A stretch of 64,000 nucleotides of DNA from Haliotis rubra (lineage: Eukaryota). The DNA is taken from the NCBI RefSeq assembly GCF_003918875.1, contig NW_025766975.1, forward strand, positions 994,684-1,058,683, given 5' to 3'. Numbering within the stretch: the first letter of the stretch is position 1; each line of letters starts with the position of its first letter. A model generated the notes under the pieces. That model made no database searches. It had not been told where the DNA came from and saw only the letters and a list, made by a program, of their open reading frames with translations. Positions 10,420 to 41,519 of the stretch are shown piece after piece. Position numbers and translations under genes: made by a program.

Positions 10420-10545
10420 TCAAGCAGATGTCTGCCTATCTTGTTCCCTGCCTACAAGACCACCTGCTGTGTTGAACAGGTTGAGGGGATTCTTGGCATC
10501 AGTGAACAACACGCTCTGCATCCCGAGAGCCTGCAGCAAGCGGGC
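10420..10545 (-). CDS. MVP: MVP exon 25 (last coding exon, includes TGA stop at 10420-10422)
   Basis: acceptor tttgtttttcag|GCCCGC; encodes ARLLQALGMQSVLFTDAKNPLNLFNTAGGLVGREQDRQTSA*, cf. vertebrate MVP ...[32 protein letters not shown]. Confidence 0.8.
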   Translation of the reverse strand, partial: ARLLQALGMQSVLFTDAKNPLNLFNTAGGLVGREQDRQTSA

Positions 10546-10876
10546 CTGAAAAACAAAGGTAACATTGAAGTTGGTTGGCTGTCGTTTAACACCGCTGAAT
10601 GCAGTGTAAAACTAAACTCACTCACTCATTCGGCTGGAAACCATAGATCTACGAGTTGTTTTAGAAACCGGGAATCTATATTGCTCAGGAATGATCGATT
10701 TTTGTATTTTTCTGGTCACTGATCTTGACCTTGTTAATCTGGATGCCCTGCTCACATGATCAAAATATCGAGCTAAAGAGTCATGAGCTCAGTAAAGTAT
10801 TCACCCACATGAAACTGTTGCTGATGCTACAGAGACAAAAGATCCTATTTGCAAGGATTAACAATTTGTTTGTCTT

Positions 10877-10955
10877 ATTTAACACCATACTCAGCAATAT
10901 TCCAGCCATACAGTAATCTGAACCAGACAATCCAATGACTGACCCTCGATCTATG
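10877..10955 (-). mobile_element. SINE-B fragment
   Basis: CAGCAATATTCCAGCCATACAG...CAGACAATCCAATGA. Confidence 0.45.
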
Positions 10956-11089
10956 CGAATCCATGAAGCTTTTCCTCATTGACAAGGAGCACTGAAGTAC
11001 TTAATGGTGAACCAGTTCTCAATACTTTAAGATTGCTATGAATTGAAACAATAGGTGGCATACACATACTGAACGTTTTGTCCCATTCA

Positions 11090-11308
11090 AGCAGAATGAG
11101 CAATATTCCAGCTATAAGGAGACAGTCTGTAAAAATCAAGTCTGGACCTAGACAATCCAGTGATCAACAGCATGAGCATCGATCTACACAATTGGGATAC
11201 GATGACGTGTGTCAACCAAGTCACGAGTTTGACCACCCTATCCTGTAAGTCGCCTCTTACGACAAGCATGGGTTGCTGAAGATCAATTCTAAGGCGGATC
11301 TTCATGGG
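11090..11308 (-). mobile_element. SINE-B copy
   Basis: near full-length match to SINE-B consensus in reverse orientation. Confidence 0.7.
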
Positions 11309-11348
11309 TTCCTGTGGAGGAACTCCTACAGGGCACAGAATGTCTCAC

Positions 11349-11429
11349 CTGGGTATCTGGGCCAGCTTGGGCCATGGCTGCACATGTCTCTTGGCCAATA
11401 CTCTCAATCATCTCCTGGAATTTGTTCAC
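11349..11429 (-). CDS. MVP: MVP exon 24
   Basis: aatttcag|GTGAAC ... ACCCAG|gtgagaca; encodes VNKFQEMIESIGQETCAAMAQAGPDTQ (cf. [27 protein letters not shown]). Confidence 0.8.
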
Positions 11430-11889
11430 CTGAAATTAGACAGTAACTGTCAACATTTTCAATATCTTCCAATGAACAGTATGGTTTCTCCACAGCCTAA
11501 GACTATTACAGATATAAACTTATATACAGACTCTAAGATGTTATATTTTGTTGAAAATCTGTTTCCTTTGAATTCCTGTGTTGACAGAGCAGGCTACACA
11601 AGAGTTGCTTCCCTTTGGTCATGAGAATGAAGTATTATTTAGTAAAACCGTAATTGTCCATCTTAAAACAATGGCTCTATTGTAATTTCCCTTTATTTAC
11701 ATCTTCAATATTTGAAGGAGAGAATATTCCCCATTAAAACACAGATGTAACTGTTGTTAAATATGTGGAAAAGGATCTAGGAAATATAAAACACAGCTTG
11801 ATGGTTATGACCAAATCATATGGTGATGGAACGTCAGCAAATCAACCCTGCTTGAAACAGGATACAGTGCATATCTGGATTTTGCTCAC

Positions 11890-11970
11890 TTCAATCTCAG
11901 CCTTCCTTCTTTCTTTGTCCAGGTAGAGCTCGTTTTGACCTCGCAGGTAGTTGATCTCGCCCCTCTTCGC
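11890..11970 (-). CDS. MVP: MVP exon 23 (cap-helix)
   Basis: tgtgtgacag|GCGAAG ... ATTGAA|gtgagc; encodes AKRGEINYLRGQNELYLDKERRKAEIE (cf. [27 protein letters not shown]). Confidence 0.75.
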
Positions 11971-12160
11971 CTGTCACACAAGTCACAATACTCTCCTCAC
12001 ACTTAAAAACTCAAACTTTAACTATATGTTAGGGAGAAGGCCTAACAAAATAGATGTGTAAATGAATGCTTCTTAAGCAAAAATATTAAACAATCTATAT
12101 CAATGGAGCCTGTACATAATCAAATCTGGAAATCTGGTCTATGCAAACGAGTGATTGATG

Positions 12161-12311
12161 AGTGAGTGAGTAAGTATGGTTTTATGCCTCTTTTAGCAAT
12201 ATTCCAGCAACATCACGGAGGGGACACCAGAAATGGGCTTCACACATTGTATCCATGTCAGGAATGGAACCCGGCGTCTTGGGCATCACGAGTCAACGCT
12301 ACCCCACCGCC
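12161..12311 (-). mobile_element. SINE-A copy
   Basis: (GAGT)n...CCAGCAACATCACGGAGGGGACACCAGAAATGGGCTTCACACATTG... Confidence 0.75.
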
Positions 12312-12544
12312 AAATTGATAGGAGCAGAGTTGCCTCCTATTAGGGTATAATGACTTGCACTGGGCCTCACCAGCTTAGGTGTCTACTACAAGTCCCACTG
12401 TAAACCGATCGATATGGAGTTTCTTCTGCAGAAATTTAAGCTTGTATAATCTGAGTGATTTCTTGTAGTGTTCTCATACTTTAGTGAGAACAAGTGAGGA
12501 AATTCAGTTACTTAAGCTCTGTGGCAGTCAAGTATTGTATGATA

Positions 12545-13818
12545 TACTTACCAGGCAAGTACTACCCAAATAGTTACCATGATTTGTGGCAATCAAGAAT
12601 CAATATTTAGCATGTTATGTGACAGTCAGGTACCTATATTTACCATGCTCTGTGAAATGCTCAGTGACAGTATAACATCACAGTTAGCATGTTCTGTGAC
12701 AGTCAGGTACCTATATTTACCATGCTCTGTGAAATGCCCAGTGACAGTATAACATCACAGTTAGCATGTTATGTGATGGTCAGGTACCTATATTTACCAT
12801 GCTCTGTGAAATGCTCAGTGACAGTATAACATCACAGTTAGCATGTTCTGTGACAGTCAGGTACCTATATTTACCATGCTCTGTGAAATGCTCAGTGACA
12901 GTATAACATCACAGTTAGCATGTTATGTGACAGTCAGGTACCTATATTTACCATGCTCTGTGAAATGCTCAGTGACAGTATAACATCACAGTTAGCATGT
13001 TCTGTGACAGTCAGGTACCTATATTTACCATGCTCTGTGAAATGCCCAGTGACAGTATAACATCACAGTTAGCATGTTATGTGATGGTCAGGTACCTATA
13101 TTTACCATGCTCTGTGAAATGCTCAGTGACAGTATAACATCACAGTTAGCATGTTCTGTGACAGTCAGGTACCTATATTTACCATGCTCTGTGAAATGCT
13201 CAGTGACAGTATAACATCACAGTTAGCATGTTATGTGACAGTCAGGTACCTATATTTACCATGCTCTGTGAAATGCTCAGTGACAGTATAACATCACAGT
13301 TAGCATGTTATGTGACAGTCAGGTACCTATATTTACCATGCTCTGTGAAATGCTCAGTGACAGTATAACATCACAGTTAGCATGTTATGTGACAGTCAGG
13401 TACCTATATTTACCATGCTCTGTGAAATGCTCAGTGACAGTATAACATCACAGTTAGCATGTTCTGTGACAGTCAGGTACCTATATTTACCATGCTCTGT
13501 GAAATGCTCAGTGACAGTATAACATCACAGTTAGCATGTTATGTGACAGTCAGGTACCTATATTTACCATGCTCTGTGAAATGCTCAGTGACAGTATAAC
13601 ATCACAGTTAGCATGTTCTGTGACAGTCAGGTACCTATATTTACCATGCTCTGTGAAATGCTCAGTGACAGTATAACATCACAGTTAGCATGTTATGTGA
13701 CAGTCAGGTACCTATATTTACCATGCTCTGTGAAATGCTCAGTGACAGTATAACATCACTGTGATGGTCAGTCATCAATAGTAGCCATGTTTTGTGACAG
13801 TTAAGTATCTATATTTAC
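12545..13818. repeat. Satellite D: 77-bp unit x about 16, abutting the donor of MVP exon 22
   Basis: period 77 measured (12681 to 12758); minus-strand unit ...CAGAGCATG|GTAAATATAGGTACCTGACTGTCAC... matches exon 22 end ...CAGGGCATG|GTAAATATAGATACTTAACTGTCAC. Confidence 0.85.
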
Positions 13819-13883
13819 CATGCCCTGTGTCTCCAGTCTAGCTTGATGTTCTATTGCCTCTGCCTCTGCCTTCAGTTTTGCAG
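13819..13883 (-). CDS. MVP: MVP exon 22 (cap-helix)
   Basis: gggttttttccag|CTGCAAAACTG ... GGCATG|gtaaat; encodes (A)AKLKAEAEAIEHQARLETQGM (cf. LQAKLKAQALAIETEAELQRVQK). Confidence 0.75.
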
Positions 13884-14074
13884 CTGGAAAAAACCCACAA
13901 ATTGCAAGAAAGAATGATATGCATAAGGTCAGTGCCCGCTTCAGTCCTCCTCTCCTAATTGTAAGTCATTTATCATTCAAGTCCTCATTCATTCTATGGA
14001 AACCTCAAAACTAAGCCATAGGATTCTGAACACAGCAGAAATCTGATATGAGGGAAATGTTCACTGAGCACTGC

Positions 14075-17000
14075 CCTGAATGACTGTTTGACCAGAAAAC
14101 TTTCTTCCATAAAAATCCATCTGTATCACACACAGCTCACCTTCAATCTCACTCTGACACTCTATAAGCATCCTCTCTGCCTGGGCCTCTATCACACACA
14201 GCTCACCTTCAATCTCACTCTGACACTCTATAAGTATCCTCTCAGCCTGGGCCTGCATCACAGCTCACCTTCAATCTCACTCTGACACTCTATAAGCATC
14301 CTCTCTGCCTGGGCCTGCATCACAACTCACCTTCAATCTCACTCTGACGCTCTATAAGCATCCTCTCAGCCTGGGCCTGTATCACACACAACTCACCTTC
14401 AATCTCACTCTGACACTCTATAAGCATCCTCTCAGCCTGGGCCTGCATCACAGCTCACCTTCAATCTCACTCTGACGCTCTATAAGCATCCTCTCAGCCT
14501 GGGCCTGTATCACACACAACTCACCTTCAATCTCACTCTGGCACTCTATAAGCATCCTCTCAGCCTGGGCCTGTATCACACACAGCTCACCTTCAATCTC
14601 ACTCTGACGCTCTATAAGCATCCTCTCAGCCTGGGCCTGTATCACACACAACTCACCTTCAATCTCACTCTGACGCTCTATAAGCATCCTCTCAGCCTGG
14701 GCCTGTATCACAGCTCACCTTCAATCTCACTCTGACGCTCTATAAGTATCCTCTCAGCCTGGGCCTGCATCACAACTCACCTTCAATCTCACTCTGACGC
14801 TCTATAAGCATCCTCTCAGCCTGGGCCTGCATCACAGCTCACCTTCAATCTCACTCTGATGCTCTATAAGCATCCTCTCAGCCTGGGCCTGTATCGCACA
14901 CAGCTCACCTTCAATCTCACTCTGACGCTCTATAAGCATCCTCTCAGCCTGGGCCTGCATCACAGCTCACCTTCAATCTCACTCTGACACTCTATAAGCA
15001 TCCTCTCAGCCTGGGCCTGTATCACACACAGCTCACCTTTCAATCTCACTCTGGCTCTATATAAGCATCCTCTCAGCCTGGGCCTGCATCACAACTCACC
15101 TCTTCAATCTCACTCTGACACTCTATAAGCATCCTCTCAGCCTGGGCCTGTATCACACACACAACTCACCTTCAATCTCACTCTGCCAGCTCTATAAGTA
15201 TCCTCTCAGCCTGGGCCTGTATCACACACAGCTCACCTTCAATCTCACTCTGACACTCTATAAGTATCCTCTCAGCCTGGGCCTCTATCACACACAGCTC
15301 ACCTTCAATCTCACTCTGACACTCTATAAGTATCCTCTCAGCCTGGGCCTGTATCACACACAGCTCACCTTCAATCTCACTCTGACACTCTATAAGTATC
15401 CTCTCAGCCTGGGCCTCTATCACACACAGCTCACCTTCAATCTCACTCTGACACTCTATAAGTATCCTCTCAGCCTGGGCCTCCTATCACACACAGCTCA
15501 CCTTCAATCTCACTCTGACACTCTATAAGTATCCTCTCAGCCTGGGCCTGTATCACACACAGCTCACCTTCAATCTCACTCTGACACTCTATAAGTATCC
15601 TCTCAGCCTGGGCCTGTATCACACACAGCTCACCTTCAATCTCACTCTGACACTCTATAAGCATCCTCTCAGCCTGGGCCTGCATCACAACTCACCTTCA
15701 ATCTCTCACTCTGACACTCTATAAGCATCCCTCTCAGCCTGGGCCTGTATCACACACAACTCACCTTCAATCTCACTCTGACGCTCTATCAGTATCCTCT
15801 CAGCCTGGGCCTGTATCACACACAGCTCACCTTCAATCTCTCACTCTGACACTCTATAAGTATCCTCTCAGCCTGGGCCTGTATCACACACAGCTCACCT
15901 TCAATCTCACTCTGACACTCTATAAGCATCCTCTCAGCCTGGGCCTGTATCACACACAGCTCACCTTCAATCTCACTCTGACACTCTATAAGTATCCTCT
16001 CAGCCTGGGCCTGTATCACACACAGCTCACCTTCAATCTCACTCTGACACTCTATAAGCATCCTCTCAGCCTGGGCCTCTATCACACACAGCTCACCTTC
16101 CAATCTCACTCTGACACTCTATAAGCATCCTCTCAGCCTGGGCCTCAGCTATCACACACAGCTCACCTTCAATCTCACTCCTGACACTCCTATAGGTATC
16201 CTCTCAGCCTGGGCCTGTATCACACACAGCTCACCTTCAATCCCACTCTGGCACTCTATAAACATCCTCTCAGCCTGGGCCTGTATCACAGCTCACCTTC
16301 AATCTCACTCTGACGCTCTATAAGCATCCTCTCAGCCTGGGCCTGCATCACAACTCACCTTCAATCTCACTCTGACGCTCTATAAGCATCCTCTCAGCCT
16401 GGGCCTGTATCACAGCTCACCTTCAATCTCACTCTGACACTCTATAAGCATCCTCTCTGCCTGGGCCTCTATCACACACAGCTCACCTTCAATCTCACTC
16501 TGGCTGCATCCTCTATAAAGTATCCTCTCAGCCTGGGCCTGTATCACACACAGCTCACCTTCAATCTCACTCTGACACTCTCACACAAGCATCCTCTCTG
16601 CCTGGGCCCTCCTATCACATAATGTCAGCTCACCTTCAATCTCACTCTGACCTCTGTAAGCATCCTCTCTGCCTGGGCCTCTATCACACACGTCTCACCT
16701 TTCAATCTCACTCTGACCTCTATAAGTATCCTCTCAGCCTGGGCCTGTATCACACACAGCCTCACCTTCAATCCTCACTCTGATACTCTATAAGCATCCT
16801 CTCTGCCTGGGCCTCTATCACACACAGCTCACCTTCAATCTCCTCCTGACCTCTATAGGTATCCTCTCAGCCTGGGCCTCTATCACACACAGCTCACCTT
16901 CAATTCTCACTCTCAGCCTGGTCTGTATCCTGTGGCTCTCACTCTGACACTCTATAAGTATCCTCTCTGCCTGGGCCTGTATCACACACAGCTCACCTTC

Positions 17001-20000
17001 AATCTCACTCTGACACTCTATAAGTATCCTCTCGGCCTGGGCCTGTCACACACAGCTCACCTTCAGTCTCACTCTGACACTCTATAGACGTCCTCTCTGC
17101 CTGGGCCTCTATCACACAGCTCACCCTTCACTCTCACTCTGACACTCTCTATGGTATCCTCTCTGCCTGGGCTCTGTATCACACACAGCTCACCTTCAAT
17201 CTCACTCTGACACTCTCTATAGTATCCTCAGCCTGGGCCTGTGTCACAGCTCACCTTCAATCTCACTCTGACACTCCTTATAAGCATCCATCTCTGCCTG
17301 GGCCTCTATCACAGCTCACCTTCATACCATTTTCTCTGACCACTCTGCAATGTCCTCCTCTCAGCCTGAGCCTGTATCACTGGCTCACCTTCCAATCTCA
17401 CTCTGTCCTCTATAAGCATCCCTCTCTGCCTGGGCCTGCATCTAACTCACCTTCCAATCTCACTCTGACGCTCTATAAGCATCCTCTCAGCCTGGGCCTG
17501 TATCCAAAACTCACCTTCAATCTCACTCCTGACACTCTATAAGCATCCTCTCAGCCTGGGCCTGCATCACAGCTCACCTTCAATCTCACTCTGACTCTCT
17601 ATAAAGCATCCTCTCAGCCTGGGCCTGTATCACAGCTCACCTTCAATCTCACTCTGACACTCTATAAGCATCCTCTCTGCCTGGGCCTCTATCACACACA
17701 GCTCACCTTCAATCTCACTCTGGCACTCTATAAGTATCCTCTCAGCCTGGGCCTGTATCACACACAGCTCACCTTCAATGTCACTCTGACACTCTATAAG
17801 TATCCTCTCAGCCTGGGCCTGTATCACACACAGCTCACCTTCAATCTCACTCTGACACTCTATAAGCATCCTCTCAGCCTGGGACTGCATCACAACTCAC
17901 CTTCAATCACTCTGACAATCTATAAAAGCATCCTCTCAGCCTGGGCCTGTATCACAGCTCACCTTCAATCTCACTCTGACACTCTATAGAAGCATCCTCT
18001 CTGCCTGGGCCTCTATCACAGCTCACCTCCAATCTCACTCTGGCTCTATAAGTATGTCCTCTCTGCCTGGGCCTGTATCACAGCTCACCTTCAATCTCAC
18101 TCTGACACTCTATAAGCATCCTCTCTGCCTGGGCCTCTATCACACACAGCTCACCTTCAATCTCACTCTGACACTCTATAAGTATCCTCTCAGCCTGGGC
18201 CTGTATCACAGCTCACCTTCAATCTCACTCTGACTCTCTATAAGTATCCTCTCAGCCTGGGCCTGCATCACAACTCACCTTCAATCTCACTCTGACACTC
18301 TATAAGCATCCTTTCAGCCTGGGACTGCATCACAACTCACCTTCAATCTCTCACTCTCATGACACAGCTCTATAAGCATCCTCTCAGCCTGGGACTGCAT
18401 CACAGCTCACCTTCAATCCTCACTCTGACACTCTATAAGCATCCCTCTCACCTGGGCCTGTATGTCACACAGCTCACCTTCAATCTCACTCTGACACTCA
18501 ATAAGCATCCCCTCAGCCTGGGCCTGTATCACACACAACTCACCTTCAATCCCTCTCTAGGCTCTATAAGGATCCTCTCAGCCTGGGCCTGTATCACACA
18601 GCTCACCTTCAATCCCACTCTGACTCTATAAGCATCCTGGGCCTGGGCCTGTATCACACACAGCTCACCACCTTCAATCTCACTCTGACACTCTATAAGC
18701 ATCCTCTCAGCCTGGGCCTGTATCACACACAGCTCAGCTTCAATCTCCTCTCTGGCTCTATAAGCATCCTCTCAGCCTGGGCCTGTATCACAACTCACCT
18801 TCAATCTCACTCTGACACTCTATAAGCATCCTCTCAGCCTGGGCCTGTATCACAGCTCACCTTCAATCTCACTCTGACGCTCTATAAGCATCCTCTCAGC
18901 CTGGGCCTGTATCACAACTCACCTTCAATCTCACTCTGGCACTCTATAAGCATCCTCTCACCCTGGGCCTGTATCACACACAGCTCACCTTCAATCTCAC
19001 TCTGACACTCAATAAGCATCCCCTCAGCCTGGGCCTGTATCACACACAACTCACCTTCAATCCCACTCTGACACTCTATAAGGATCCTCTCAGCCTGGGC
19101 CTGTATCACACACAGCTCACCTTCAATCCCACTCTGACACTCTATAAGCATCCCCTCAGCCTGGGCCTGTATCACACACAACTCACCTTCAATCCACTCT
19201 GACACTCTATAAGCATCCTCTCAGCCTGGGCCTGTATCACACACAGCTCACCTTCAATCTCACTCTGACGCTCTATAAACATCCTCTCAGCCTGGGCCTG
19301 TATCACAGCTCACCTTCAATCTCACTCTGACGCTCTATAAGTATCCTCTCAGCCTGGGCCTGTATCACACACAGCCTCACAGCTCACCTTCACATCTCAC
19401 TCTGACTCTCTATAAGCATCCTCTCAGCCTGGGCCTGTATCACACACAACTCACCTTCAATCTCACTCTGGCACTCTATAAGTATCCTCTCAGCTGGGCC
19501 TGTGTCACACAACTCACCTTCAATCTCACTCTGACACTCTATAAGTATCCTCTCAGCCTGGGCCTGTATCACACACAGCTCACCTTCAATCTCACTCTGA
19601 CACTCTATCAGCATCCTCTCAGCCTGGGCCTGTGTCACACAGCTCACCTTCCATCCACTGACTGGCTCTATAAGCATCCTCTCAGCCTGGGCCTGTATCA
19701 CACACAGCTTACCTTCAATCTCACTCTGGCAGTCTATAAGTATCCTCTCAGCCTGGGCCTCTATCACCACACAGCTCACCTTCAATCTCACTCCTGGCAC
19801 TCTATAAGCATCCTCTCGGCCCTGGGCCTGTGTCACACACAACTCACCTTCAATCTCGCTCTGGCACTCTATAAGGTATCCTCTCAGCCTGGGCCTCCCT
19901 ATCACACACGCTCTTCACCGTCTCACTCTGACACTCTATAAGTATCCTCTCGGCCTGGGCCTGTATCACACACAGCTCACCTTCAATCTCACTCTGACAC

Positions 20001-20420
20001 TCTATAAGTATCCTCTCAGCCTGGGCCTGTATCACACAGCTCACCTTCAATCTCACTCTGACACTCTAAGCATCCTCTCAGCCTGGGCCTGTATCACACA
20101 CACAAGCTCACCTTCAATCTCACTCCTGGCGCTCTATAAGCATCCTCTCAGCCTGGGCCTGTATCACACACAGCTCACCTTCAATCTCACTCTGACACTC
20201 TATAAACATCCTCTCAGCCTGGGCCTGTATCACAGCTCACCTTCAATCCCACTCTGACACTCTATAAACATCCTCTCAGCCTGGGCCTGTATCACAGCTC
20301 ACCTTCAATCTCACTCTGACACTCTATAAGCATCCTCTCAGCCTGGGCCTGTATCACACACAGCTCACCTTCAATCTCACTCTGGCACTCTATAAGCATC
20401 CTCTCAGCCTGGGCCTGTGC
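14075..20420. repeat. Satellite C: 62/66-bp unit x about 95-100 (~6.3 kb), starting at the donor of MVP exon 21
   Basis: period 66 measured (14131 to 14197); 62-bp variants lack CACA; minus-strand unit ATACAGGCCCAGGCTGAGAGGATGCTTATAGAGTGTCAGAGTGAGATTGAAG|GTGAGCTGTGTGTG = last 47 nt of exon 21 + consensus donor + 19 nt intron; in-frame (22 aa QAQAERMLIECQSEIEGELCVI); degenerate or frameshifted in 16100-17600 and 19390-19900. Confidence 0.9.
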
Positions 20421-20595
20421 TTCAGCTTTGGCTTGCCCAGTTGACTCAACAGCTGCAGCTATAGCACACAGATGCAGCAAGTTGGCCCTCTCCTTCTCTG
20501 CATCCTTCTCATTGGCCAGCTTCTGTCTCTCCAGCTGACCGCGTGCAGCCTGCTCAATCTTGTCAGCCTCATGGGCTGCTGCATTCTCTATGGAC
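20369..20595 (-). CDS. MVP: MVP exon 21 (shoulder/cap-helix start)
   Basis: tactgtacag|GTCCATAGAG ... GATTGAAG|gtgagc; encodes (K)SIENAAAHEADKIEQAARGQLERQKLANEKDAEKERANLLHLCAIAAAVESTGQAKAEAQAQAERMLIECQSEIE (cf. ...[61 protein letters not shown]). Confidence 0.8.
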
Positions 20596-20784
20596 CTGTA
20601 CAGTATTTATGAGGGAATTAGCCGTCATGACTTGCTACTCACTAGTGGTGGGAATTGGTTAAAGTTTCAAGACTAATCATGGTTTAACAAAAGGACTGTT
20701 GATGGTTTAATGAATAATCATAATTGAGAACACAGAAATACAAAGAAATGCAGAGCTGTAATTCTGCATTTGTCCTTAAAAATG

Positions 20785-22880
20785 TAATTTTTGGAGTAAA
20801 ATTGATATTTTATACTTATCCTGACTCATGCTCTTTTTGCTTGTCTTCTTCTTCTTGCGAACATAGTGGAACACTTGTATCTCCCTAATTGAAGCTCCCT
20901 TCAATTTAAAATCACTAATTAGTATTCACCACGAGTTACCTCCTTTCCACAAGCGCGGGAACGAGGGCGCCACCTCTACCCATGTGCCTCACTCTCTCCT
21001 CATATACTGAGCCCAACATTTGAATTTACAGGAAATCCAAAGTGTTATTTGGGGAGGATGGGAGGGGCTGACCTCATGAGTCAGGATAAGTATAAAATAT
21101 CAATTTTACTCCAAAATTACATATTTTCCTTATCCTGACTCATGCTCTTGCTTGTAGCATCCTACGGACGGAGGTGGGAATATCTAATACTTTGGATTTT
21201 TAATAATTAGTGATTTGAACTGTGATGATTGTAATAACCCTATGGGAACTTCATAAAGGCACTGAACTGATGAATTCCTGCTGCTAACTTATCAGCTGCC
21301 ATATATGTTAAAAGGTTATTACCATGTACTTATTATGATAAAGTATATATAACATTAATACAATGCTTAAGACTAATAGACTTAAGCTTGTTAATATGCT
21401 AGTATAAACTCCTTAGAGTTTGTTAGCTAAAATACTTTAAGATATAACATAGTACTAAGCTTAAGATATGATTAAACTTAAGCTAATTATATAATAGCAA
21501 ACTCTTTAGAGTTTGTTAGCTAATCTACTTATATGATATAGATATAGTGCTGAGCTTAAGATATGAATAAGCTTTAGCTACCTATATATATAATAGCAAA
21601 ACTCTGTAGAGTTTGTTAGCTAATATATTTTTATAATATGAGTATAGTACTATGCTTAAGGTATAATTAGCTTAAGTTACCTATATAATAGTAAAACTCC
21701 GTAGAGTTTGTTAGCTTAATTAACTTAAGCTATGTATAAAATAGCCAAAAACTCTGTAGAGTTTGTTAGCTAATGCATTTATCATGTAACCATAGTATTA
21801 CTCTTAAGATATGAATAACTTAAGGTAAATATATATAATAACAAACTCTGTAGAGTTGTTAACTTATATATTGTATGATGTAATAATCATAGTACTGTGA
21901 TGATAAAAGGAACTTAAGTAAATTATATATAGCATGAAGCTATTTAGTATTGTTATAAGATAAGTAAAAATCTGTTAGATTGACTTATCTTCTAAGAGGA
22001 ACTGTCAGCTGTTGTGCGAGGACCATGGGATCGAATTGGTGTATACCTGAGACGTCCTCCTGGTGGTGATATCTCTCAGATAATGGTTTGCAACCACCAT
22101 ATCGATTTCCAGAAATAAACCCTCCATTATTTCAATCACATTTGTGTAGAACAATTGTAGAAGTTAGCGCTATAATATCATGAGTATTAAGCTCATGGAG
22201 GGTCGGAATAGGTCCATCCGCATATGCACGTAGTATGACAGTTCTGATCCAAATGGAGATATAGTACATGAGACTTCACTCTGCGTAAGTTGATGATAGA
22301 GGAAATAATCTGTTGCATTTTTCCTCCTGTTTGGTTTGGTGGAGATAAATTTACAGTGCTCTTGCTGGCCATCTTGATAGAATCATCGTGATCATGGGGT
22401 CCAAGTATGTCATCCAGGCGGTTGTTCATAAACCCGGATCAGCAGCAGCATAAAAACGCAATCTGTAATAGTACAGAATTTTCATCAACGAATCCACTGA
22501 AACAAACACGCGCCCCGTGAATAAACTGTAGAAAAAAACGAATTAAATATCAATATATAATCGCTTGAAGGATACTAGCTAAACCTCTATAGATGTCTAT
22601 ACGAGGTAACTAACTAAATATAATTCAAAGGATATAGTGTGTCGGAGACACAGGCGCTTCTCACGTCCAGCTCACTGGGCGAAGAAGGAGAGAGTGAGGC
22701 ACATGGGTAGAGGTGGCGCCCTCGTTCCCGCGCTTGTGGAAAGGAGGTAACTCGTGGTGAATACTAATTAGTGATTTTAAATTGAAGGGAGCTTCAATTA
22801 GGGAGATACAAGTGTTCCACTATGTTCGCAAGAAGAAGAAGACAAGCAAAAAGAGCATGAGTCAGGATAAGGAAAAATTA
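20785..22880. mobile_element. TE1: ~2.1-kb non-autonomous foldback-like DNA element with ~230-bp terminal inverted repeats
   Basis: 20812-21040 is the reverse complement of 22660-22880 (CTTATCCTGACTCATGCTCTTTTTGCTTGTC...GGCGCCACCTCTACCCATGTGCCTCACTCTCTCC); subterminal hairpin CATGAGTCAGGATAAG...CTTATCCTGACTCATG; internal ~60-bp tandem array 21340-21900; shared with TE2. Confidence 0.75.
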
Positions 22881-23084
22881 ACAGTATGTAGAGTAAAAAA
22901 CATGAGAATGATATCATTCCATATTCTGCAACACAAAATCATCAACAATCAGTGTTTTCAGTAGCAACTGAACCTCCAATGACAGATGTGGTGAGCAAGG
23001 ACCCACTACTGGAGAACAATGACACGCAATAGAGCGAGAAACTGAATGTTCAGTCACCTTGTATGACCAGAAATGTTTGATTTG

Positions 23085-23278
23085 CTTGTTTGTTGTTTAA
23101 CATTGCACTCAGCAATATTCCAGCTGTAAGGTGGATAATTAATAATCAGATCTGGACAAGACAATCCAGTGATCAACATCATGAGCATCGATCTAAGCAA
23201 TTGGGATACGATGACATATGCCAACCAAGTCAGCGAGTCTGATCACCATTCCTCGCCTCTTATGACAAGCATGGGTTG
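23085..23278 (-). mobile_element. SINE-B copy, directly abutted by a SINE-A
   Basis: SINE-B body ends at ...GACAAGCATGGGTTGA then SINE-A begins. Confidence 0.6.
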
Positions 23279-23408
23279 ATATTCCAGCAATATCACAGCA
23301 GTGGACACCTGAAATGGGCTTCAAACATTGTACCCATGTGGGGAATCGAACTCTGGCCTTCAGCGTGACGAGCAAACGCTTAAAGCACTAGGTTACCCCA
23401 CCGCCCCT
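23279..23408 (-). mobile_element. SINE-A copy (tail-truncated)
   Basis: ATTCCAGCAATATCACAGCAGTGGACACCTGAAATGGGCTTCA...CCACCGCCCC. Confidence 0.65.
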
Positions 23409-23467
23409 GGACCACTACATCGGCAGACATAAAAGATGGTTGCTGAAAACAAATGTCAAGAACAAAC

Positions 23468-23568
23468 TTTGTAGCAATCTCTATGGCCATCTGTATTGAC
23501 TTGCTGAGGCTGTCCCTCATCTTCACGTCTGATGGCTCGATGCTCTGAACGTCGATACTGGTAATTAC
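23468..23568 (-). CDS. MVP: MVP exon 20
   Basis: atatcaccag|GTAATTACC ... ACAAA|gtttgt (weak donor); encodes [33 protein letters not shown](K) (cf. [33 protein letters not shown]). Confidence 0.65.
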
Positions 23569-23583
23569 CTGGTGATATAAAGG

Positions 23584-23750
23584 AGTGAGTGAGTGAGGTT
23601 TAGTTTTACACTGCTTTTATCACTATTCCTGCAATATCACCATGGTGGATACAAGAAATGGGCTGCACAAATTTCACGCCTTGGGGAACCAAATCCAAAT
23701 CTTTCGCGTGGCAAGAGAACGCTTTTAACCACTAGGCTACCCTAACGCCC
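23584..23750 (-). mobile_element. SINE-A copy
   Basis: (GAGT)n...CTTTTATCACTATTCCTGCAATATCACCATGGTGGATACAAGAAATGGGCTGCACA... Confidence 0.7.
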
Positions 23751-24312
23751 TGTGTAATATAAGGAAACACAGAATCAGCATTGTACTATTTGTAGAACTA
23801 AGGCCTGCAGAAACAACTGCTGACAGTGTCACAAAAATATACTACTGCCTGGGCAACTTATATCAGTCAACGATTTTTGCTGTGTGGCTATACATTAATA
23901 ACTCTAATCTCACCTCTTGTTGTTGTAAGAGTGAGTGAGTGAGTGAGTGAATGTTTCTCATTCTCTTACCATACAATTTCCCAAGCATCATGTAAGATTC
24001 AGCCTGTAAAAAAGATGCAGCAAAGACCCTTTCTCATTCCATTTCTTCATTTGGTTGCAAAAATTGTTTCGTTTTTTTAGTTTCTACAGAGAAACTGTTT
24101 TGATCAACATCATATAATTATACATCTAAACTTTGCTTACGTCAAAAGCTTACTGCATCAATGTATGTAATATGTGCAGTGAAAGTTCCGGAACTTATGG
24201 CGACATGTTTCTTAAGACACACAAGTGTCTTATGATATCCACAAGTATCTAATGACTTCTTAAGTATCAATCAAAGTTGTTTTAAGTTTAAGAGTCTAAT
24301 CCGTTCAAGGGT

Positions 24313-24544
24313 GCCATCCTATCTATAATGGAGAGCGGAAGGTCGCGGGTTCGATCCCCGACCGCGTCATACCAAAAGACGTTAAAATATGGTACTTGTT
24401 GGTCCCTGCCTGGCGTTCGGCATTAATGGGTACAACAAGGACTGCTCGGCTCGGAGTCAGTATAATGTGTCTGCGCATGCACGTCGTCATATGAGCGTAA
24501 TATTCTCAAGCACGACGTTAAACCCAATTTCACCTCACCTCACC
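24313..24544 (+). mobile_element. SINE-C copy (head-truncated)
   Basis: GAGAGCGGAAGGTCGCGGGTTCGATCCCCGACCGCGTCATACCAAAAGACG...CACCTCACCTCACC. Confidence 0.75.
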
Positions 24545-24681
24545 TATCTATAATCCAATATCAACACCCATCACAGTTTGTTCCATCACAGTGGCTCGAC
24601 AGTAAAAGAGCAGCAAACTAGCTTCAGCATCAGAGACATCAGCGATGGTATTTGATTGTGACGTGACGGTAACCAAAGAAT

Positions 24682-24841
24682 AAGTGAGTGATTTGGTCTT
24701 ATGCCGCTTTTAGCAGTATTCCAGCAATATCACGGCATGGGACACCAGAAATGGGCTTGATGCATTGTACACATGAACGGAATCGAACCCGGGTCTTCGG
24801 CGTGATGCTTAACCCACGACGCAACGCACTCCCACTGCCCG
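24682..24841 (-). mobile_element. SINE-A copy (degenerate)
   Basis: AGTGAGTGATTTGGTCTTATGCCGCTTTTAGCAGTATTCCAGCAATATCACGGCATGGGACACCAGAAATGGGCTTGA... Confidence 0.6.
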
Positions 24842-24904
24842 TAACCGTAAAGGTCACAATGGACAGTAAAAAATGAATCGTGATGCAATTTCATTGCCAC
24901 ATAC

Positions 24905-25050
24905 CAAGTTGTTTTCACTGAATCTGATGTGTGTCCTGAGCTGCTTGTTGACAGGGTTGATACCGAAAACGGCCGTTCGTATGATCTGCAGGGAGTGTCT
25001 GTGGAACTCATCAAAGGGAACCAGGGCAACAGCACCTCTGATCCGGCTTC
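24905..25050 (-). CDS. MVP: MVP exon 19
   Basis: ctttttccag|GAAGCC ... AACTTG|gtatgt; encodes (G)[48 protein letters not shown] (cf. [32 protein letters not shown]...FPQNGLV). Confidence 0.85.
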
Positions 25051-25412
25051 CTGGAAAAAGGTGTTCAGAAGAAATAGTAACAAATTGTGCTACGTTTGAC
25101 AGCTTTCTAAAAAAGTATTGTGTATTCATAGCTTTCGGCTGTGGGAGCCATGCCATTCTTGTGGAAGTGCGATGGCTGAGTGGGTTAGATGGCTGACTTT
25201 GTGATGGCAATTAGGTGCCTGACTCTGAGAGTGTAGGTTCAAATACTTGATTGGACGCAACCCAACAAAAGTACTGGAATCTGTATTTTACTGAGAAAGT
25301 GAAACGGGGCCCTGGATGACATAAAGCTAAAAAGGCAATAAATAGAAAAAAGCGTCACAGAAATTATTTCAGTTACTGAAGAGAATGTTTCTTATTCATA
25401 CATCATACTTAC

Positions 25413-25491
25413 CAACTTGTCGACAGGCAAAGCCAATGAAGTCTGGTACAGCAAACATTTGCTTCAGACTTTCGTCATCTTTTCGATCGTA
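25413..25491 (-). CDS. MVP: MVP exon 18
   Basis: tttgctttcag|TACGAT ... CAAGTTG|gtaagt; encodes YDRKDDESLKQMFAVPDFIGFACRQV (cf. [27 protein letters not shown]). Confidence 0.85.
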
Positions 25492-25656
25492 CTGAAAGCA
25501 AATCAAACATTCATGTTCATCGGCAGTGTACAAGTTATCAACTTTTACAGACTATAAATAAACATATAAATATTAACATACATTATAAAAATAAGCAAAA
25601 AAATCTATATGAATAACTAAAATATATCATCACAAAAATTGTTGAATTGTAATTAC

Positions 25657-37688: not shown

Positions 37689-38375
37689 GGAAAAAATAAG
37701 AGATGTCAAGAGTCATATCATACACTCGCATACCTGTGCATAAATCAAAGAGGTCATATTGTGATTCACATTATTCAACTACAAAGGTGAAATTCTCTTC
37801 CCAGTCTCCACTTAAAAGTCTGATTTGATCGACCTACAATCCCTTCACAATGTCCAAGTTAATAAATGGGTGGATAGATACTCCTCACGATCTTCATTTT
37901 TCACAGTGTGGGATAGAGCTACTTCTCCTCATAATAGGCCCCGTAAGTCTCTCGAGGCGCTACTTCCAGTACTAAGCGACTTCCCGGCTCCCTTTGAGCA
38001 CGACAACGTCCGGGGCCCAGCTTACTTCTGGTACCACATTTCCAGTGACAAACGTATATTCAAGAACCAGGTCTGGTTCCAAATTGTTTGACCGCCAAAT
38101 ATGACTTTACTAGACCAGACCAAGTGTACAACCATGCTTGGCTGTCACAGCTGTTGACAGCCGTAATAGTTGGCTAATGTGGGAATGGTTAGATCGGAGA
38201 TTTGTTATTCCTGCAAGGAGTATCGGTTCCTTAATGTCAACTGACAACCATGAGTCCATTTGAAAAGTTATGAAATGTTGTGCCATAACCTACTTACAGG
38301 CCCTATACATTAGCAGGCTAGTATAGACCTACCAGGCTTTCACAATCTCCATTGCAAACTATGGGATAGCCCTAC

Positions 38376-38466
38376 CTTCTCTTCACAATCTCTACTTCAA
38401 TGGGTGGGATGTACTCCAGTGGTCCTCGGATCAGCCATAAATCACCTGGCTTTCTTTTTGGCTTTC
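38376..38466 (-). CDS. MVP: MVP exon 11
   Basis: ttttttacaacag|GAAAGCC ... AAGAGAAG|gtagggc; encodes (G)[29 protein letters not shown] (cf. [27 protein letters not shown]). Confidence 0.85.
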
Positions 38467-38589
38467 CTGTTGTAAAAAACATCCCAATATGAAAGCTCTT
38501 CACTTTAATAAACAAGTGTTTGCCACTGATATGTCCCCCGCCGCTAAAGAATGGAACATCTATATTTACTACTTTTTATTTTTTGGTCA

Positions 38590-39140
38590 CATACAAATAT
38601 GGAATAACTGGTGTCTGCCTAATCACCCAATGTAGGCCGTCGACATAATTGAAAACATTGGGTGCAATGTTTTATGAGATATCGCATTTAAAAAAGTTTG
38701 AAAAGTGGTAAAAGTGTCGTGGTGACTTTGAAGATAAGGTCAAGGTCACCCAAATCAACAAGTGTCTCTGTAATCCCCCAATGTAGGCTGTCACCAAATT
38801 TGAAGACATTGCATGGCTACAACAGTCCATGAGATGTCGCGTTAACAAGAGTTTGAAAAGTGATCAAACTGTCATGGCGACCTTGAAGATAAGGCCAAGG
38901 TCATCCAAATAATCTGGTGTCTGCGTAATCCCCCAATGTAGGCTGTCACCCAATTTGAAGACGTTGGGTACAACAGTTCATGAGATATTGCATTAACAAG
39001 AGTTTGATAAGTGGTCAAAGTGTTATGTGCCCTTGAAAATAAGGTCAAGGTCACCCAAAATCGACTGGTGTCTGGGAAATCCCCAAATGTAGACTGTCAC
39101 CAAATTTGAAGACATTGGGTATAACAGTTCATGAGATATC
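38590..39140. repeat. 150-160-bp tandem repeat x about 3.5 (intron 11)
   Basis: AATCCCCCAATGTAGGCTGTCACC... recurs at 38621, 38763, 38924, 39075. Confidence 0.8.
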
Positions 39141-39588
39141 GCTTTAAAAAGATCCAGGATGTATGTACATACGTACGGACGCCGCCAAATACATAGTCCC
39201 CTGTTCCGCGTTGTGGAGGGGGACAATAAACAAGCTTCATGTGGCCTTATAATGATAAGTGCATTTGTAATGCGCTAAACTCCATTCCCTAGGTGAATTT
39301 CCAGTCAAGGATATGGATACAGACATTATACAGATTATTGAAAATCTGAAAGGATTGATTTGGAAGGAGTGGTGCATGAAGGATAATGTAACTCTCACAC
39401 CCAGACGTTTTCATTCTCTGTTCACATGTGAACTGAACTGATCGATGTTACAGTCGGTTGTAAGTACATAATTGCTATAGTATTGCTATACATTGTTTAT
39501 GGTAATGTGATGAATTTATGTGTCAGTTACAGTAATAGATGCTTAGCCCTAAAAATCTTAGCTTGGAATAAAGAGTAGTTATCATAAC

Positions 39589-39988
39589 TAGGGGTGTCGC
39601 GATACGCGAATGTATCGATGTATCGATACATTTTTACTGGCGATACGATACGCGATACATGCTTGCATGTATCGATTCCTATTTTAAAACTTTATCGATT
39701 CAAATTTTTATGCTATATCCATCTCCTTCAAAGTCTTGATAGTAAAATTATACGAGATCGCTCCGATAAATAGATGTAGCTAGCTTTACTTAAAAAATAG
39801 GTTGGAAACTAACAGCTTTTGTGATTGGCTAGACTATTTTGATGGACCAATCAGCGAGAGCCGTACGTTGCCGGTAAGGTAATGCTATGAAAAGGCGAGA
39901 AAATTATGTATCGCGATACGTATTGTATCGTGACCTTAAAATCGTGATACGTATCGTATCGTGAGATTGGTGTATCGTGACACCCCTA
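39589..39988. mobile_element. hAT-like MITE (~400 bp) with 8-bp target-site duplication
   Basis: TIRs TAGGGGTGTCGCGATACG / CGTGACACCCCTA (YARNG start); flanked by identical ATCATAAC at 39581-39588 and 39989-39996; internal CGATACG/CGTATCG micro-repeats. Confidence 0.75.
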
Positions 39989-39999
39989 ATCATAACCTT

Positions 40000-40385
40000 C
40001 TGATTCGAAAGTCAGACGACTTGTCCACATGACCAAAGATGTTAACCCCATCAGCAAGCTGACAAGGTAAGGATGTCAGCTATGGGATGATTCAACGCCT
40101 TGCTACATTCGCACCCATTAACAGAAGGCACGTCCCGGACTGCATAGCTGGGTACTGAGACTTATTTTGCTCAAATTTATTATGAACGTGCTCAACCCCA
40201 TGTTGGGCCCCAATATAGCAGCCATAGAATATCAGAATTGATTTGGGATTCGAACCGCAGATCTTCTGATCAGAAGTCGGACATCTTGTCCACATGACAA
40301 AAGAGGTTAACCCTGTTAGCAAGCTGACAAGGTAAGGATGTCATTTGTGGGACTACTCCACGCCCTGCTACACAAACACATGTTA
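40000..40385 (-). mobile_element. two adjacent copies of a tRNA-derived SINE (SINE-E)
   Basis: repeated GGATTCGAA(A/C)...GACTTGTCCACATGAC(C/A)AAAGA(T/G)GTTAACCC...AGCAAGCTGACAAGGTAAGGATGTCA; minus-strand 3' end has a tRNA-like T-arm GGTTCGAATCCC. Confidence 0.55.
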
Positions 40386-40434
40386 TCATGTTATCACTGA
40401 GCATACCTTTAAATAATATCATATCTGTGCATAC

Positions 40435-40536
40435 CTTTAAACATATCGTCAGTGAAGGCTCCCTTGGCCTGGAGGACAAGGCTCTCGTCAGCTGACAAGA
40501 CGTGGGTGTTCTGTATGCCATCCTCAAGCCTCTCGC
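40435..40536 (-). CDS. MVP: MVP exon 10
   Basis: ctatgtttag|GCGAGAGG ... TTTAAAG|gtatgc; encodes (G)ERLEDGIQNTHVLSADESLVLQAKGAFTDDMFK (cf. [36 protein letters not shown]). Confidence 0.8.
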
Positions 40537-41119
40537 CTAAACATAGAAAGAAACACAATGTTCTTCAGGTCATTACAAACAACAACAGGGTCAGCAAAAA
40601 CAGGAAAGGAAAAGTCATATATTCAATAAAAGTAGGGGAAACGAAAATTCTAGATTATGATTAAATGACCATGATGTTGCTTGATGCTGCTTACAGGGGT
40701 AGTATGAATGAAAAAAATAAACCTTTTAATATGAAATGAAACAGGCTTTTAGAATGAGTTGAGGTAAAAAAAGAGTGAAATTGGTCTTATAAGGTGTAAC
40801 GATGTTATTCGCTTATCAGTTGGCACGTGTCACATATTACAATCGTCATCAGCCAACGCGTGTTCATTACAGAAACAGAGTTCTCGATAAATGTGAAACA
40901 TTTGAATCGATATAATGCAAAAAATAAACAAGTTACTTTTAATATCTGTACTGTTCTGTCACTGAAATTACTAGAAAACTTTTTATGTTGAAAAGAGCAA
41001 GACAAAAAGGCATATTTATGAGCAAACTTGTCCTATAAGGTGATGAAATAATACAACTCACTCAATCATTATGATTGTGTGAAAAATACAGAGTAGGTAT
41101 ATGTGAAGCTTTTGTTTAC

Positions 41120-41261: not shown

Positions 41262-41334
41262 CTGCAGCAGGAAGAGTCACAGTTGTTGACTACATCAACA
41301 TCGTCTACAGCTATTTCATGTGCATCACTAACAC

Positions 41335-41497: not shown

Positions 41498-41519
41498 CCA
41501 CCAACACAGACTGCACCTA

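What the first reader, a model, noticed from the sequence alone, without database searches (positions are those of the whole stretch)
12545..13818. The 77-bp satellite repeats the exon 22 GTAAAT donor region
The minus-strand unit ...CAGAGCATG|GTAAATATAGGTACCTGACTGTCACAGAACATGCTAACTGTGATGTTATACTGTCACTGAGCATTTCA matches the exon 22 end CAGGGCATG|GTAAATATAGATACTTAACTGTCACAAAACATGGCTACT. This is the fourth donor-anchored array. Unlike Satellite C, only about 9 nt of exon are included.
Basis: seen in the sequence. Interest (0 to 1): 0.5.

Follow-up and report, generated by a model that had tools for sequence, protein, structure and literature searches.

The report
Splice-donor minisatellite in abalone vault gene
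A 77-base intronic tandem repeat in the blacklip abalone major vault protein gene is built from copies of the exon/intron junction just upstream of it, a known kind of "mirage" minisatellite that is probably harmless but gives 15 exact decoy splice sites.

Summary
The window carries the major vault protein (MVP) gene of Haliotis rubra on the minus strand. My spliced 26-exon model is identical to RefSeq XP_046574866.1.

It ends CACAGGGCATG|GTAAAT. Intron 23 opens with degenerate copies of this junction, followed by 15 near-identical 77-bp units. Each unit carries CACAGAGCATG|GTAAAT. The junction-versus-unit alignment scores 65, against 14±2.4 for shuffles.

The 77-mer is a higher-order unit of 33+32+12 nt. 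It derives from a 33-bp repeat that sits on the same junction in H. rufescens (about 85 copies) and H. cracherodii (about 34 copies). H. asinina keeps only a relic. The units preserve the ancestral AGC codon, which the H. rubra exon has changed to GGC.

Three other arrays in the gene also derive from their upstream donor junction (z = 23-24). None derives from an acceptor. Using any decoy donor would hit a stop after 5 codons.

This is a new member of a known kind: boundary-spanning minisatellites such as human F7 IVS7 and the amphioxus "mirages". It is most likely neutral. The clustering of five independent donor-derived arrays in this one gene remains unexplained.

The parts
10423..54307 (-). 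Major vault protein (MVP) gene of Haliotis rubra. It has 26 coding exons, a 2583-nt CDS, and GT-AG at every intron.
   Evidence: Exon model built by homology to the exact H. rufescens model. The spliced 861-aa product is identical to XP_046574866.1. Vault and MVP_shoulder Pfam domains are recorded for the homologues.
13819..13883 (-). It encodes (A)AKLKAEAEAIEHQARLETQGM and ends in phase 0.
   Evidence: The intron position is conserved in all four Haliotis species, Patella and Gigantopelta.
13813..13821 (-). Authentic 5' splice site ATG|GTAAAT. The G of GT is at 13818.
   Evidence: This is the only donor that yields the RefSeq protein. Read-through of the intron hits TAA after 5 codons.
13797..13829 (-). 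Junction monomer: 11 nt of exon plus the first 22 nt of the intron (CACAGGGCATG|GTAAATATAGATACTTAACTGT). It is the first copy of the repeat.
13733..13796 (-). Old, degenerate monomers (33 + 19 + 12 nt) linking the junction copy to the homogeneous array.
   Evidence: CACAAAACATGGCTACTATTGATGACTGACCAT resembles the 33-mer of H. rufescens.
12607..13732 (-). Homogeneous array of 15 units of 77 bp. Each unit consists of sub-unit a (33 nt, CACAGAGCATG|GTAAAT..., an intact decoy donor), sub-unit b (32 nt, CATG|CTAACT, donor lost) and sub-unit c (12 nt, truncated). Decoy donor G+1 positions run from 13721 to 12643 at 77-nt steps. Variants show a 308-bp super-unit.
12491..12606 (-). Relic 33-bp-type monomers at the 3' edge of the array (for example CACAAATCATGGTAACTATTT...).
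11971..12490 (-). Non-repeat remainder of intron 23, ending in the acceptor CTTGTGTGACAG|. It contains a fragment of a dispersed SINE-like element at 12160-12208.
11890..11970 (-). Coding exon 24 (81 nt, AKRGEINYLRGQ...), the acceptor partner of the authentic donor.
14121..20418 (-). Context: a 66-bp array of about 96 copies derived from the exon 22 donor junction (exon ends at 20369; unit = 46 nt exon + 20 nt intron). Among the Haliotis loci examined it is present only in H. rubra.
   Evidence: z = 23.1.
47033..49665 (-). Context: a 31-bp array of about 86 copies derived from the exon 4 donor junction (exon ends at 49643). It is present in all four Haliotis species.
   Evidence: z = 24.3.
51044..53265 (-). 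Context: a 45-bp array of about 49 copies derived from the exon 2 donor junction (exon ends at 53250). It is present in all four Haliotis species.
   Evidence: z = 24.4.

Best explanation
The feature is an intronic minisatellite whose first unit spans the exon 23 / intron 23 boundary of the Haliotis rubra MVP gene. It belongs to the 'mirage' or F7-IVS7 type of array.

Shown:
- A 33-bp segment (the last 11 nt of the exon plus the first 22 nt of the intron) is tandemly repeated on this junction in H. rufescens and H. cracherodii.
- In H. rubra the same 33-bp phase is visible at both edges of the array and inside each 77-mer, which breaks down as 33 + 32 + 12 nt.
- The H. rubra array is therefore a higher-order repeat of diverged 33-mers that was amplified recently (97% identity, with a 308-bp super-unit).
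- The intron position is older than the array, because it is conserved in Patella and Gigantopelta.
- The units keep the ancestral AGC codon, which the H. rubra exon has since changed to GGC.
- The array therefore came from the junction, not the reverse.

Inferred:
- The first duplication arose by slippage or a microhomology-mediated tandem duplication.
- Growth, shrinkage and homogenisation then proceeded by unequal exchange and gene conversion. This also explains the less homogenised edges and the collapse to a single relic in H. asinina.
- The array is tolerated because the spliceosome uses the most upstream donor, so all copies are removed with the intron.
- The 15 exact decoy donors stay silent. 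If one is used, it produces a transcript with a stop 5 codons into the intron, which is presumably degraded.
- No function needs to be invoked.
For: - Array and junction match.
- The 77-mer aligns to tandem 33-mers of H. rufescens with score 80, against 12 +/- 2.3 for shuffles, with the same unit boundaries (exon -11 to intron +22).
- Orthologous arrays start 11 nt inside exon 23 in L002 (35833-38666, 85.5 copies) and L003 (39450-40581, 34.4 copies).
- H. asinina has no array but has a junction relic at +102, where 0.002 is expected by chance.
- The exon ends CAG AGC ATG in three species and CAG GGC ATG in H. rubra, while all H. rubra units have AGC.
- All 25 intron positions are shared with Patella and Gigantopelta.
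- The model using the first donor at all four arrays is identical to RefSeq XP_046574866.1.
- Read-through gives VNIDT*.
- The unit has stops in all sense frames.
- There is no Rfam match and no unusual RNA folding, z = -0.59.
- Decoy donors are not better conserved than the rest of the unit in the 33-bp arrays (ranks 22/33 and 28/33; GT kept in 70/88 and 24/36 copies). Two of every three ancestral monomers in H. rubra have lost the GT.
- Precedents show silent but functional pseudo-donors: PMC1557585. Amphioxus mirages: PMC3087553 and PMC3902484.
Against: - No transcript data were available. Use of the first donor rests on identity with a predicted RefSeq protein and on the stop codon argument.
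- Neutral tolerance explains why donor-spanning arrays are allowed and acceptor-spanning ones are absent. It does not explain why 4 of 8 array loci in this gene's introns derive from a donor junction (P about 5e-5 under uniform placement).
- It also does not explain why five independent donor-derived arrays arose in this one gene across the genus, while the Haliotis paralogue has none.
- In the intron 2 and intron 22 arrays the donor 9-mer is somewhat better conserved than the unit average (ranks 4-11 of 45 and 5 of 66).
Confidence: 0.8

Rival explanations
1. The array is maintained because it works. Its reiterated 5' splice sites act as extra U1 snRNP binding sites inside the intron. They could reinforce definition of the short 65-nt exon, suppress premature cleavage and polyadenylation, or serve as back-up donors.
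For: - Donor-derived arrays are strongly over-represented in this gene.
- They persist at the same junctions across species (introns 2 and 4 in all four Haliotis; intron 23 in three).
- All 15 units in H. rubra carry a 9-mer identical to the real donor.
- An independent array sits on the orthologous exon 22 junction in Gigantopelta.
- U1 telescripting is established in other animals (own knowledge, not tested here).
Against: - In the 33-bp arrays on this junction the donor 9-mer is less conserved than the unit average, and the +2 T is among the most variable positions.
- In H. rubra two of the three sub-units per 77-mer have lost the GT.
- H. asinina does without this array, and three species do without the 66-bp array.
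- Back-up use would give a premature stop.
- Copy number varies from 0 to 85 between species.
Confidence: 0.1
2. A mutational process tied to the 5' splice site, such as transcription- or splicing-associated breakage or template switching at donor junctions, generates such arrays preferentially. The array is then a by-product of a site-specific mutational hot spot rather than of random duplication.
For: - There is roughly a 26-fold excess of arrays at donors compared with the rest of the introns of this gene.
- None derives from an acceptor.
- Five independent origins occur in one gene in the genus, plus one convergent origin in Gigantopelta.
Against: - Unit boundaries differ freely between arrays (exon part 11-50 nt, intron part 5-22 nt), so no fixed breakpoint is visible.
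- The Haliotis MVP paralogue (0 of 3 arrays) and Patella MVP (0 of 9) show no such arrays.
- Survivorship could mimic a hot spot: the exon-anchored copy cannot decay and can re-seed the array.
Confidence: 0.07
3. The array is removed stepwise by recursive splicing. Each unit would offer an acceptor-like TTTCACAG 6 nt upstream of a regenerated donor.
For: Each unit reads CATTTCACAG AGCATG GTAAAT, with a pyrimidine-rich CAG just upstream of the decoy donor. The other donor-derived arrays also have a CAG or TAG 6-46 nt upstream of their decoy donor (consensus units).
Against: The AG and GT are not juxtaposed (6 nt apart). A recursive step would therefore leave AGCATG in the mRNA and break the frame. 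The CAG is simply inherited from the exon sequence ACACAG. No transcript evidence is available.
Confidence: 0.02
4. The resemblance is due to chance, an assembly artefact, or a mobile-element-borne satellite that landed next to the exon.
For: Long arrays are error-prone in long-read assemblies. Mollusc genomes hold many satellite-like arrays carried by Helentrons and MITEs (PMC7492417, PMC3879986; abstracts seen).
Against: - The alignment lies about 21 sd above shuffles.
- The same junction carries arrays in two independently assembled species.
- The unit motif occurs nowhere else in the window or in seven loci.
- The unit starts inside the exon.
Confidence: 0.01

Closest known systems
Amphioxus 'mirage' minisatellites (Adh3, Canestro et al. 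2002; globins BflGb6 and BflGb9, Ebner et al. 2010, PMC3087553; TnC and PGBD5, PMC3902484)
   Same: These are minisatellite-like tandem duplications of an exon/intron boundary that reiterate splice signals without disturbing the mRNA. Units are 10-160 bp. They show concerted evolution inside the array with less homogenised edges, and copy number differs between haplotypes or species.
   Different: The organism here is a gastropod mollusc, not a cephalochordate. All arrays here derive from donors, whereas amphioxus has both 5' and 3' boundary cases. Here the array is a higher-order (33+32+12) derivative, and several large arrays (up to about 96 copies, 6.3 kb) sit in one gene.
Human F7 intron 7 37-bp VNTR, with the similar CBS IVS13 31-bp, IFI6 (6-16) intron 2, LMNB2 100-bp and PDGFA 81-bp minisatellites (Borensztajn et al. 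2006, PMC1557585)
   Same: The first monomer spans the exon/intron boundary (4 nt exon + 33 nt intron in F7). The authentic donor is followed by identical pseudo-donors. Only the most upstream donor is normally used.
   Different: In F7 the silence and latent competence of the pseudo-sites were shown by experiment. Here they are only inferred. F7 has 5-9 copies. Here there are 15 compound units, of which only every first sub-unit keeps the donor.
Intron creation or alternative introns from tandem arrays and internal duplications (Zhuo et al. 2007 PNAS, cited in PMC3087553 and PMC2812944; Rogers 1989 model)
   Same: Tandem duplication of a segment carrying splice signals places extra splice sites in a transcript.
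   Different: No new intron or isoform is created here. Intron 23 is ancient, and any decoy use gives a premature stop.

Membership tests
Exon/intron boundary-spanning minisatellite ('mirage', F7-IVS7 type) | Head-to-tail array of units in the minisatellite size range | tested here: met
   TRF reports period 77, 15.0 copies, 97% matches. The underlying period is 33.
Exon/intron boundary-spanning minisatellite ('mirage', F7-IVS7 type) | The first unit spans an exon/intron boundary, so the splice site sequence is reiterated in the intron | tested here: met
   The first monomer is 13829-13797: 11 nt of exon 23 plus 22 nt of intron. Fifteen units carry a 9-mer identical to the real donor ATG|GTAAAT.
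Exon/intron boundary-spanning minisatellite ('mirage', F7-IVS7 type) | The boundary predates the array (the array is a copy of the junction, not its source) | tested here: met
   The intron position is conserved in Patella and Gigantopelta. H. asinina has the junction without an array. The units keep the ancestral AGC.
Exon/intron boundary-spanning minisatellite ('mirage', F7-IVS7 type) | Normal mRNA is made from the authentic (most upstream) site; repeats are spliced out | tested here: inconclusive
   The first-donor model equals RefSeq XP_046574866.1, and decoy use gives a stop after 5 codons. No transcript reads could be examined.
Exon/intron boundary-spanning minisatellite ('mirage', F7-IVS7 type) | Rapid turnover: copy-number change, concerted evolution, less homogenised edges | tested here: met
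   Copy numbers between species are 85.5, 34.4, 15 compound units, and a single relic. Degenerate monomers sit at both edges. Within-population polymorphism is not testable here.
Recursive splice site (ratchet point) | Juxtaposed 3' and 5' splice site motifs (polypyrimidine-AG|GTRAGT) that regenerate a donor | tested here: not met
   The unit reads TTTCACAG-AGCATG-GTAAAT. AG and GT are 6 nt apart.
Mobile-element-borne satellite-like arrays of molluscs (Helentron or MITE associated) | The same unit is dispersed at other loci, or the array is flanked by element termini | tested here: not met
   The unit motif is confined to exon 23 end / intron 23 in the window and in all seven loci held. The array starts inside the exon. 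A whole-genome search was not possible.
Coding tandem repeat or array of alternative exons | Open reading frame maintained across units | tested here: not met
   77 is not a multiple of 3. There are stops in all three sense frames, and the longest open stretch is 21 codons.
Known structured RNA family | Match to an Rfam covariance model, or folding clearly better than shuffles | tested here: not met
   There are no Rfam matches in the whole window at gathering thresholds. Folding three units gives z = -0.59.

The most novel reading that the evidence does not exclude
Donor-derived arrays in this gene may not be random tolerated junk. They could be the product of a process linked to the 5' splice site. 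That process could be a junction-specific mutational mechanism, or selection for reiterated U1-binding sites in introns. This would explain three things: five independent donor-derived arrays in the Haliotis MVP orthologue, the absence of any acceptor-derived array, and a convergent array on the orthologous exon 22 junction of Gigantopelta. If so, abalone would offer a natural system, like the amphioxus 'mirages', in which 5' splice sites seed minisatellites genome-wide.
Probability: 0.15. Interest if true: 0.65.

Novelty: new member of a known kind. Interest (0 to 1): 0.33.

Why it matters
On its own the 77-bp array is an ordinary, probably neutral intronic minisatellite of a kind described in the literature searched here since at least 1995 in human genes (Turri et al. 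1995) and since 2002 in amphioxus. Its value is as a clean natural experiment. Fifteen decoy donors, identical to the real one over 9 nt and with 11 nt of shared exon context, lie 97-1175 nt downstream of it. Three further such arrays sit in the same gene, and orthologous arrays of different period and copy number occur in sister species. That makes it a good test bed for how the spliceosome picks the first of many identical 5' splice sites. It also allows the turnover of boundary-anchored minisatellites to be dated, because the units fossilise the ancestral exon base. For annotation, such arrays can mislead gene predictors and repeat maskers at exon ends. The open question worth a genome-wide scan is why donor junctions are so over-represented as array seeds in this gene.

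Tried and rejected
- Rfam scan of the whole window found nothing.
- RNA folding of three units was no better than shuffles, so pseudo-donor masking by structure is not supported.
- Coding repeat was rejected because of stops in all frames.
- Mobile-element origin was rejected because the unit occurs nowhere else in the sequences held.
- H. rufescens isoform X2 (P0195) was checked as possible evidence of decoy-donor use. It is only an N-terminal truncation starting at Met102.
- A test for selection on decoy donors compared per-position conservation in 14 arrays. It gave no consistent signal.
- Near-donor arrays in the control loci do not contain the junction. These are the H. cracherodii MVP paralogue introns 6 and 11, Gigantopelta introns 11 and 14, and Patella intron 13.
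- An attempt to widen the sample to neighbouring Haliotis genes failed. No other gene lies within 10 kb of MVP in H. rufescens.
- The H. rubra protein itself has no contig on record.
- The original 'mirage' paper (PMC117041) and Zhuo et al. 2007 (PMC1783408) are not held. They are cited only through papers that describe them.
It was replaced by exact models from database proteins.

Full report
**What is in the window.** The window is eukaryotic. Its minus strand carries a major vault protein (MVP) gene. Database searches confirmed MVP (Vault and MVP_shoulder domains) and gave abalone proteins as the closest relatives. I derived exact 26-exon models for the H. asinina, H. rufescens and H. cracherodii orthologues from their genomic loci L001-L003. 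Each model translates exactly to its RefSeq protein. I then transferred the exon boundaries to the window. The resulting CDS is 2583 nt, has GT-AG at every intron, and encodes 861 aa. Its product is identical to XP_046574866.1, 'major vault protein-like [Haliotis rubra]'. The window is therefore H. rubra. The annotated protein is obtained only if the exon-proximal donor is used at every array.

**Checking the observation.** TRF reports a 77-bp array at 12607-13759 with 15.0 copies and 97% matches. It encodes (A)AKLKAEAEAIEHQARLETQGM and ends in phase 0 with CACAGGGCATG|GTAAATATAG. Fifteen further GTAAATATAG sites follow at 77-nt steps from 13721 to 12643, each preceded by CACAGAGCATG. Local alignment of the junction to the unit scores 65 over 58 columns. 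Shuffles give 13.9 +/- 2.4, with a maximum of 27. The 15-mer CACAGAGCATGGTAA with up to 2 mismatches occurs 23 times, all within 12574-13829, against 0.3 expected. The shared exon part is 11 nt (10 identical), slightly more than the 'about 9' stated.

**Anatomy.** Cutting intron 23 at every CAC[A/T]N[A/T]NC[A/T]T anchor shows a hidden 33-nt phase.
- The first monomer (13829-13797) is the junction itself.
- Next come 64 nt of degenerate monomers.
- Then come 15 compound units. Each has sub-unit a (33 nt, CACAGAGCATG|GTAAAT..., donor intact), sub-unit b (32 nt, CACATAACATG|CTAACT..., GT lost) and sub-unit c (12 nt, CACTGAGCATTT, truncated).
- About 130 nt of relic monomers follow, down to about 12491.
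- Variant positions repeat every four units, giving a 308-bp super-unit. This indicates recent multi-unit duplication.
- The remainder of the 1848-nt intron (to 11971) is non-repeat and includes a SINE-like fragment.

**Comparative evidence.**
- In H. rufescens and H. cracherodii, a 33-bp array (CACAGAGCATGGTAACTATTGATGCTTGACTGT) starts 11 nt inside the orthologous exon and runs for 85.5 and 34.4 copies.
- The H. rubra 77-mer aligns to tandem copies of that 33-mer with score 80, against 12 +/- 2.3 for shuffles, and has the same unit boundaries. The arrays therefore share an origin, and the 77-mer is a higher-order derivative.
- H. asinina has the MVP closest to H. rubra (96% identity, against 90% for the Californian pair). 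It has no array but keeps one junction-like relic at +102, where 0.002 is expected by chance. The simplest history is origin before these species split, followed by collapse in H. asinina.
- The exon ends CAG AGC ATG in the three other species and CAG GGC ATG in H. rubra. Every H. rubra unit has AGC, so the array fossilises the ancestral exon end.
- All 25 intron positions of the gene are conserved in Patella vulgata and Gigantopelta aegis. The donor is therefore far older than the array, and the array was copied from the junction.

**The other arrays.** I scored each TRF unit against the upstream donor junction and the downstream acceptor junction. This splits all intronic arrays of seven gastropod MVP loci cleanly into two groups: donor-derived (z 8.6-28) and unrelated (z at most 3.4). 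None derives from an acceptor.
- In the window the donor-derived arrays are the 45-bp (exon 2), 31-bp (exon 4), 66-bp (exon 22) and 77-bp (exon 23) arrays. Together they make up 12.5 kb, or 30% of the gene's intron sequence.
- The exon 2 and exon 4 arrays occur in all four species.
- A 34-bp array on the exon 11 donor occurs only in the Californian pair.
- The 66-bp array occurs only in H. rubra.
- That makes five independent origins in this one orthologue.
- With 25 donors in 41.3 kb of intron, 4 of 8 array loci spanning a donor has P of about 5e-5 under uniform placement.
- Controls: the Haliotis MVP paralogue has 0 of 3, Patella 0 of 9 and Gigantopelta 1 of 6. The single Gigantopelta case is a 156-bp array on the junction orthologous to the H. 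rubra 66-bp array.

**How it most likely works.** The reading frame after exon 23 runs into TAA after five codons (VNIDT*). Decoy donors would add 97 + 77k nt, so none can give a functional product. The unit has stops in all sense frames, no Rfam match and no unusual fold. I therefore read the array as a tolerated, probably neutral by-product that is removed with intron 23. The first duplication and later expansion by slippage and unequal exchange are inferred from the array structure: a higher-order repeat, degenerate edges, and large copy-number differences between species. The silence of the decoys is inferred from the RefSeq identity and from the human F7 precedent. In F7 the pseudo-donors are functional but the most upstream site always wins (PMC1557585). 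Preference for the first donor would also explain why donor-spanning duplications survive and acceptor-spanning ones do not.

**Test for selection on the decoys.** I aligned every copy of 14 arrays to its consensus and ranked the conservation of the donor 9-mer among all 9-nt windows of the unit.
- For the intron 23 arrays the ranks are 22/33 and 28/33, with GT kept in 70/88 and 24/36 copies. The H. rubra array is too homogeneous to be informative.
- Across the other arrays the ranks scatter from 4/45 to 24/31.
- In H. rubra two of every three ancestral monomers have lost their GT.
- There is thus no consistent sign that decoy donors are preserved or purged.

**Comparison with what is known.** Minisatellites whose first unit spans an exon/intron boundary are described for human F7, CBS, IFI6, LMNB2 and PDGFA (PMC1557585). 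In amphioxus they are known as 'mirages' in Adh3, globins, TnC and PGBD5 (PMC3087553 and PMC3902484). The present array meets the structural criteria of that class. Splicing behaviour could only be checked indirectly. My searches of the held literature found no report of such arrays in molluscs. There, dispersed satellite-like arrays are usually attributed to Helentrons and MITEs. That explanation does not fit here, because the unit is local and starts inside the exon. The recursive splice site criterion (juxtaposed AG|GT) is not met.

**Verdict.** The finding is correct and well explained as a new member of a known kind. What remains unexplained is the concentration of donor-derived arrays in this gene, which deserves a genome-wide test.

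Noticed in passing
window 20303-20368 (minus strand), start of the 66-bp array: The 66-bp unit (46 nt exon + 20 nt intron) is 22 codons long. Read-through after exon 22 stays open for 25 codons (GELCVIQAQAERMLIECQSEIEGEL*). Use of the first decoy donor would therefore insert exactly 22 residues in frame, repeating part of the coiled-coil region. This differs from the 77-bp array, where any decoy use gives a stop.
   Followed up: partly
L006 42891-44467 (Gigantopelta aegis MVP, intron 23 of its 27-exon model): A 156-bp array of 10 copies has a unit containing 19 nt of exon plus 12 nt of intron from the junction orthologous to H. rubra exon 22 (score 57, against 13 +/- 2.3). This is an independent donor-derived array on the same ancient junction in a distant gastropod.
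   Followed up: partly
L002 19358-20257 and L003 18528-20375: H. rufescens and H. cracherodii carry a 34-bp donor-derived array on the exon 11 junction (..EIVKRR, aag|GTAGGT). It is absent from H. rubra and H. asinina.
   Followed up: partly
L001 4200 (H. asinina exon 2 donor): The annotated authentic donor is cag|GTCAGT, while the consensus decoy donor of the 45-bp array behind it is cag|GTGAGG. No decoy is identical to the real site, and the decoys look closer to the usual consensus.
   Followed up: no
window, about 20 places, e.g. 60754-61044, 4078-4201, 37570-37688, 58978-59086, 12160-12208: A dispersed short element occurs in both orientations at 77-93% identity (blastn). Its translation reads ..LLITGLSGPDS..YRPPPYSWNIAECGVK.. 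It is probably a SINE or MITE-like repeat. One fragment lies in intron 23 downstream of the array.
   Followed up: partly
window 56797-57354 (+) and 61253-61711 (-): These are transposase remnants upstream of MVP. The first ORF matches Pfam PF01498 (Tc3-type transposase HTH) above its cut-off. The second gives only weak HTH matches.
   Followed up: partly
window 29791-31151 and 21406-21931: The same AT-rich 95-bp satellite family occurs in two different MVP introns (14 and 21). It is unrelated to either splice junction (z below 1.5) and is possibly carried by a mobile element.
   Followed up: no
window 41678-42299; L002 16272-17242; L003 15195-15448: Intron 8 holds a GATG-rich array (periods 15, 33, 54, 57 and 159) in three species. 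It is not derived from a splice junction, which shows that unanchored arrays can also persist across species.
   Followed up: no
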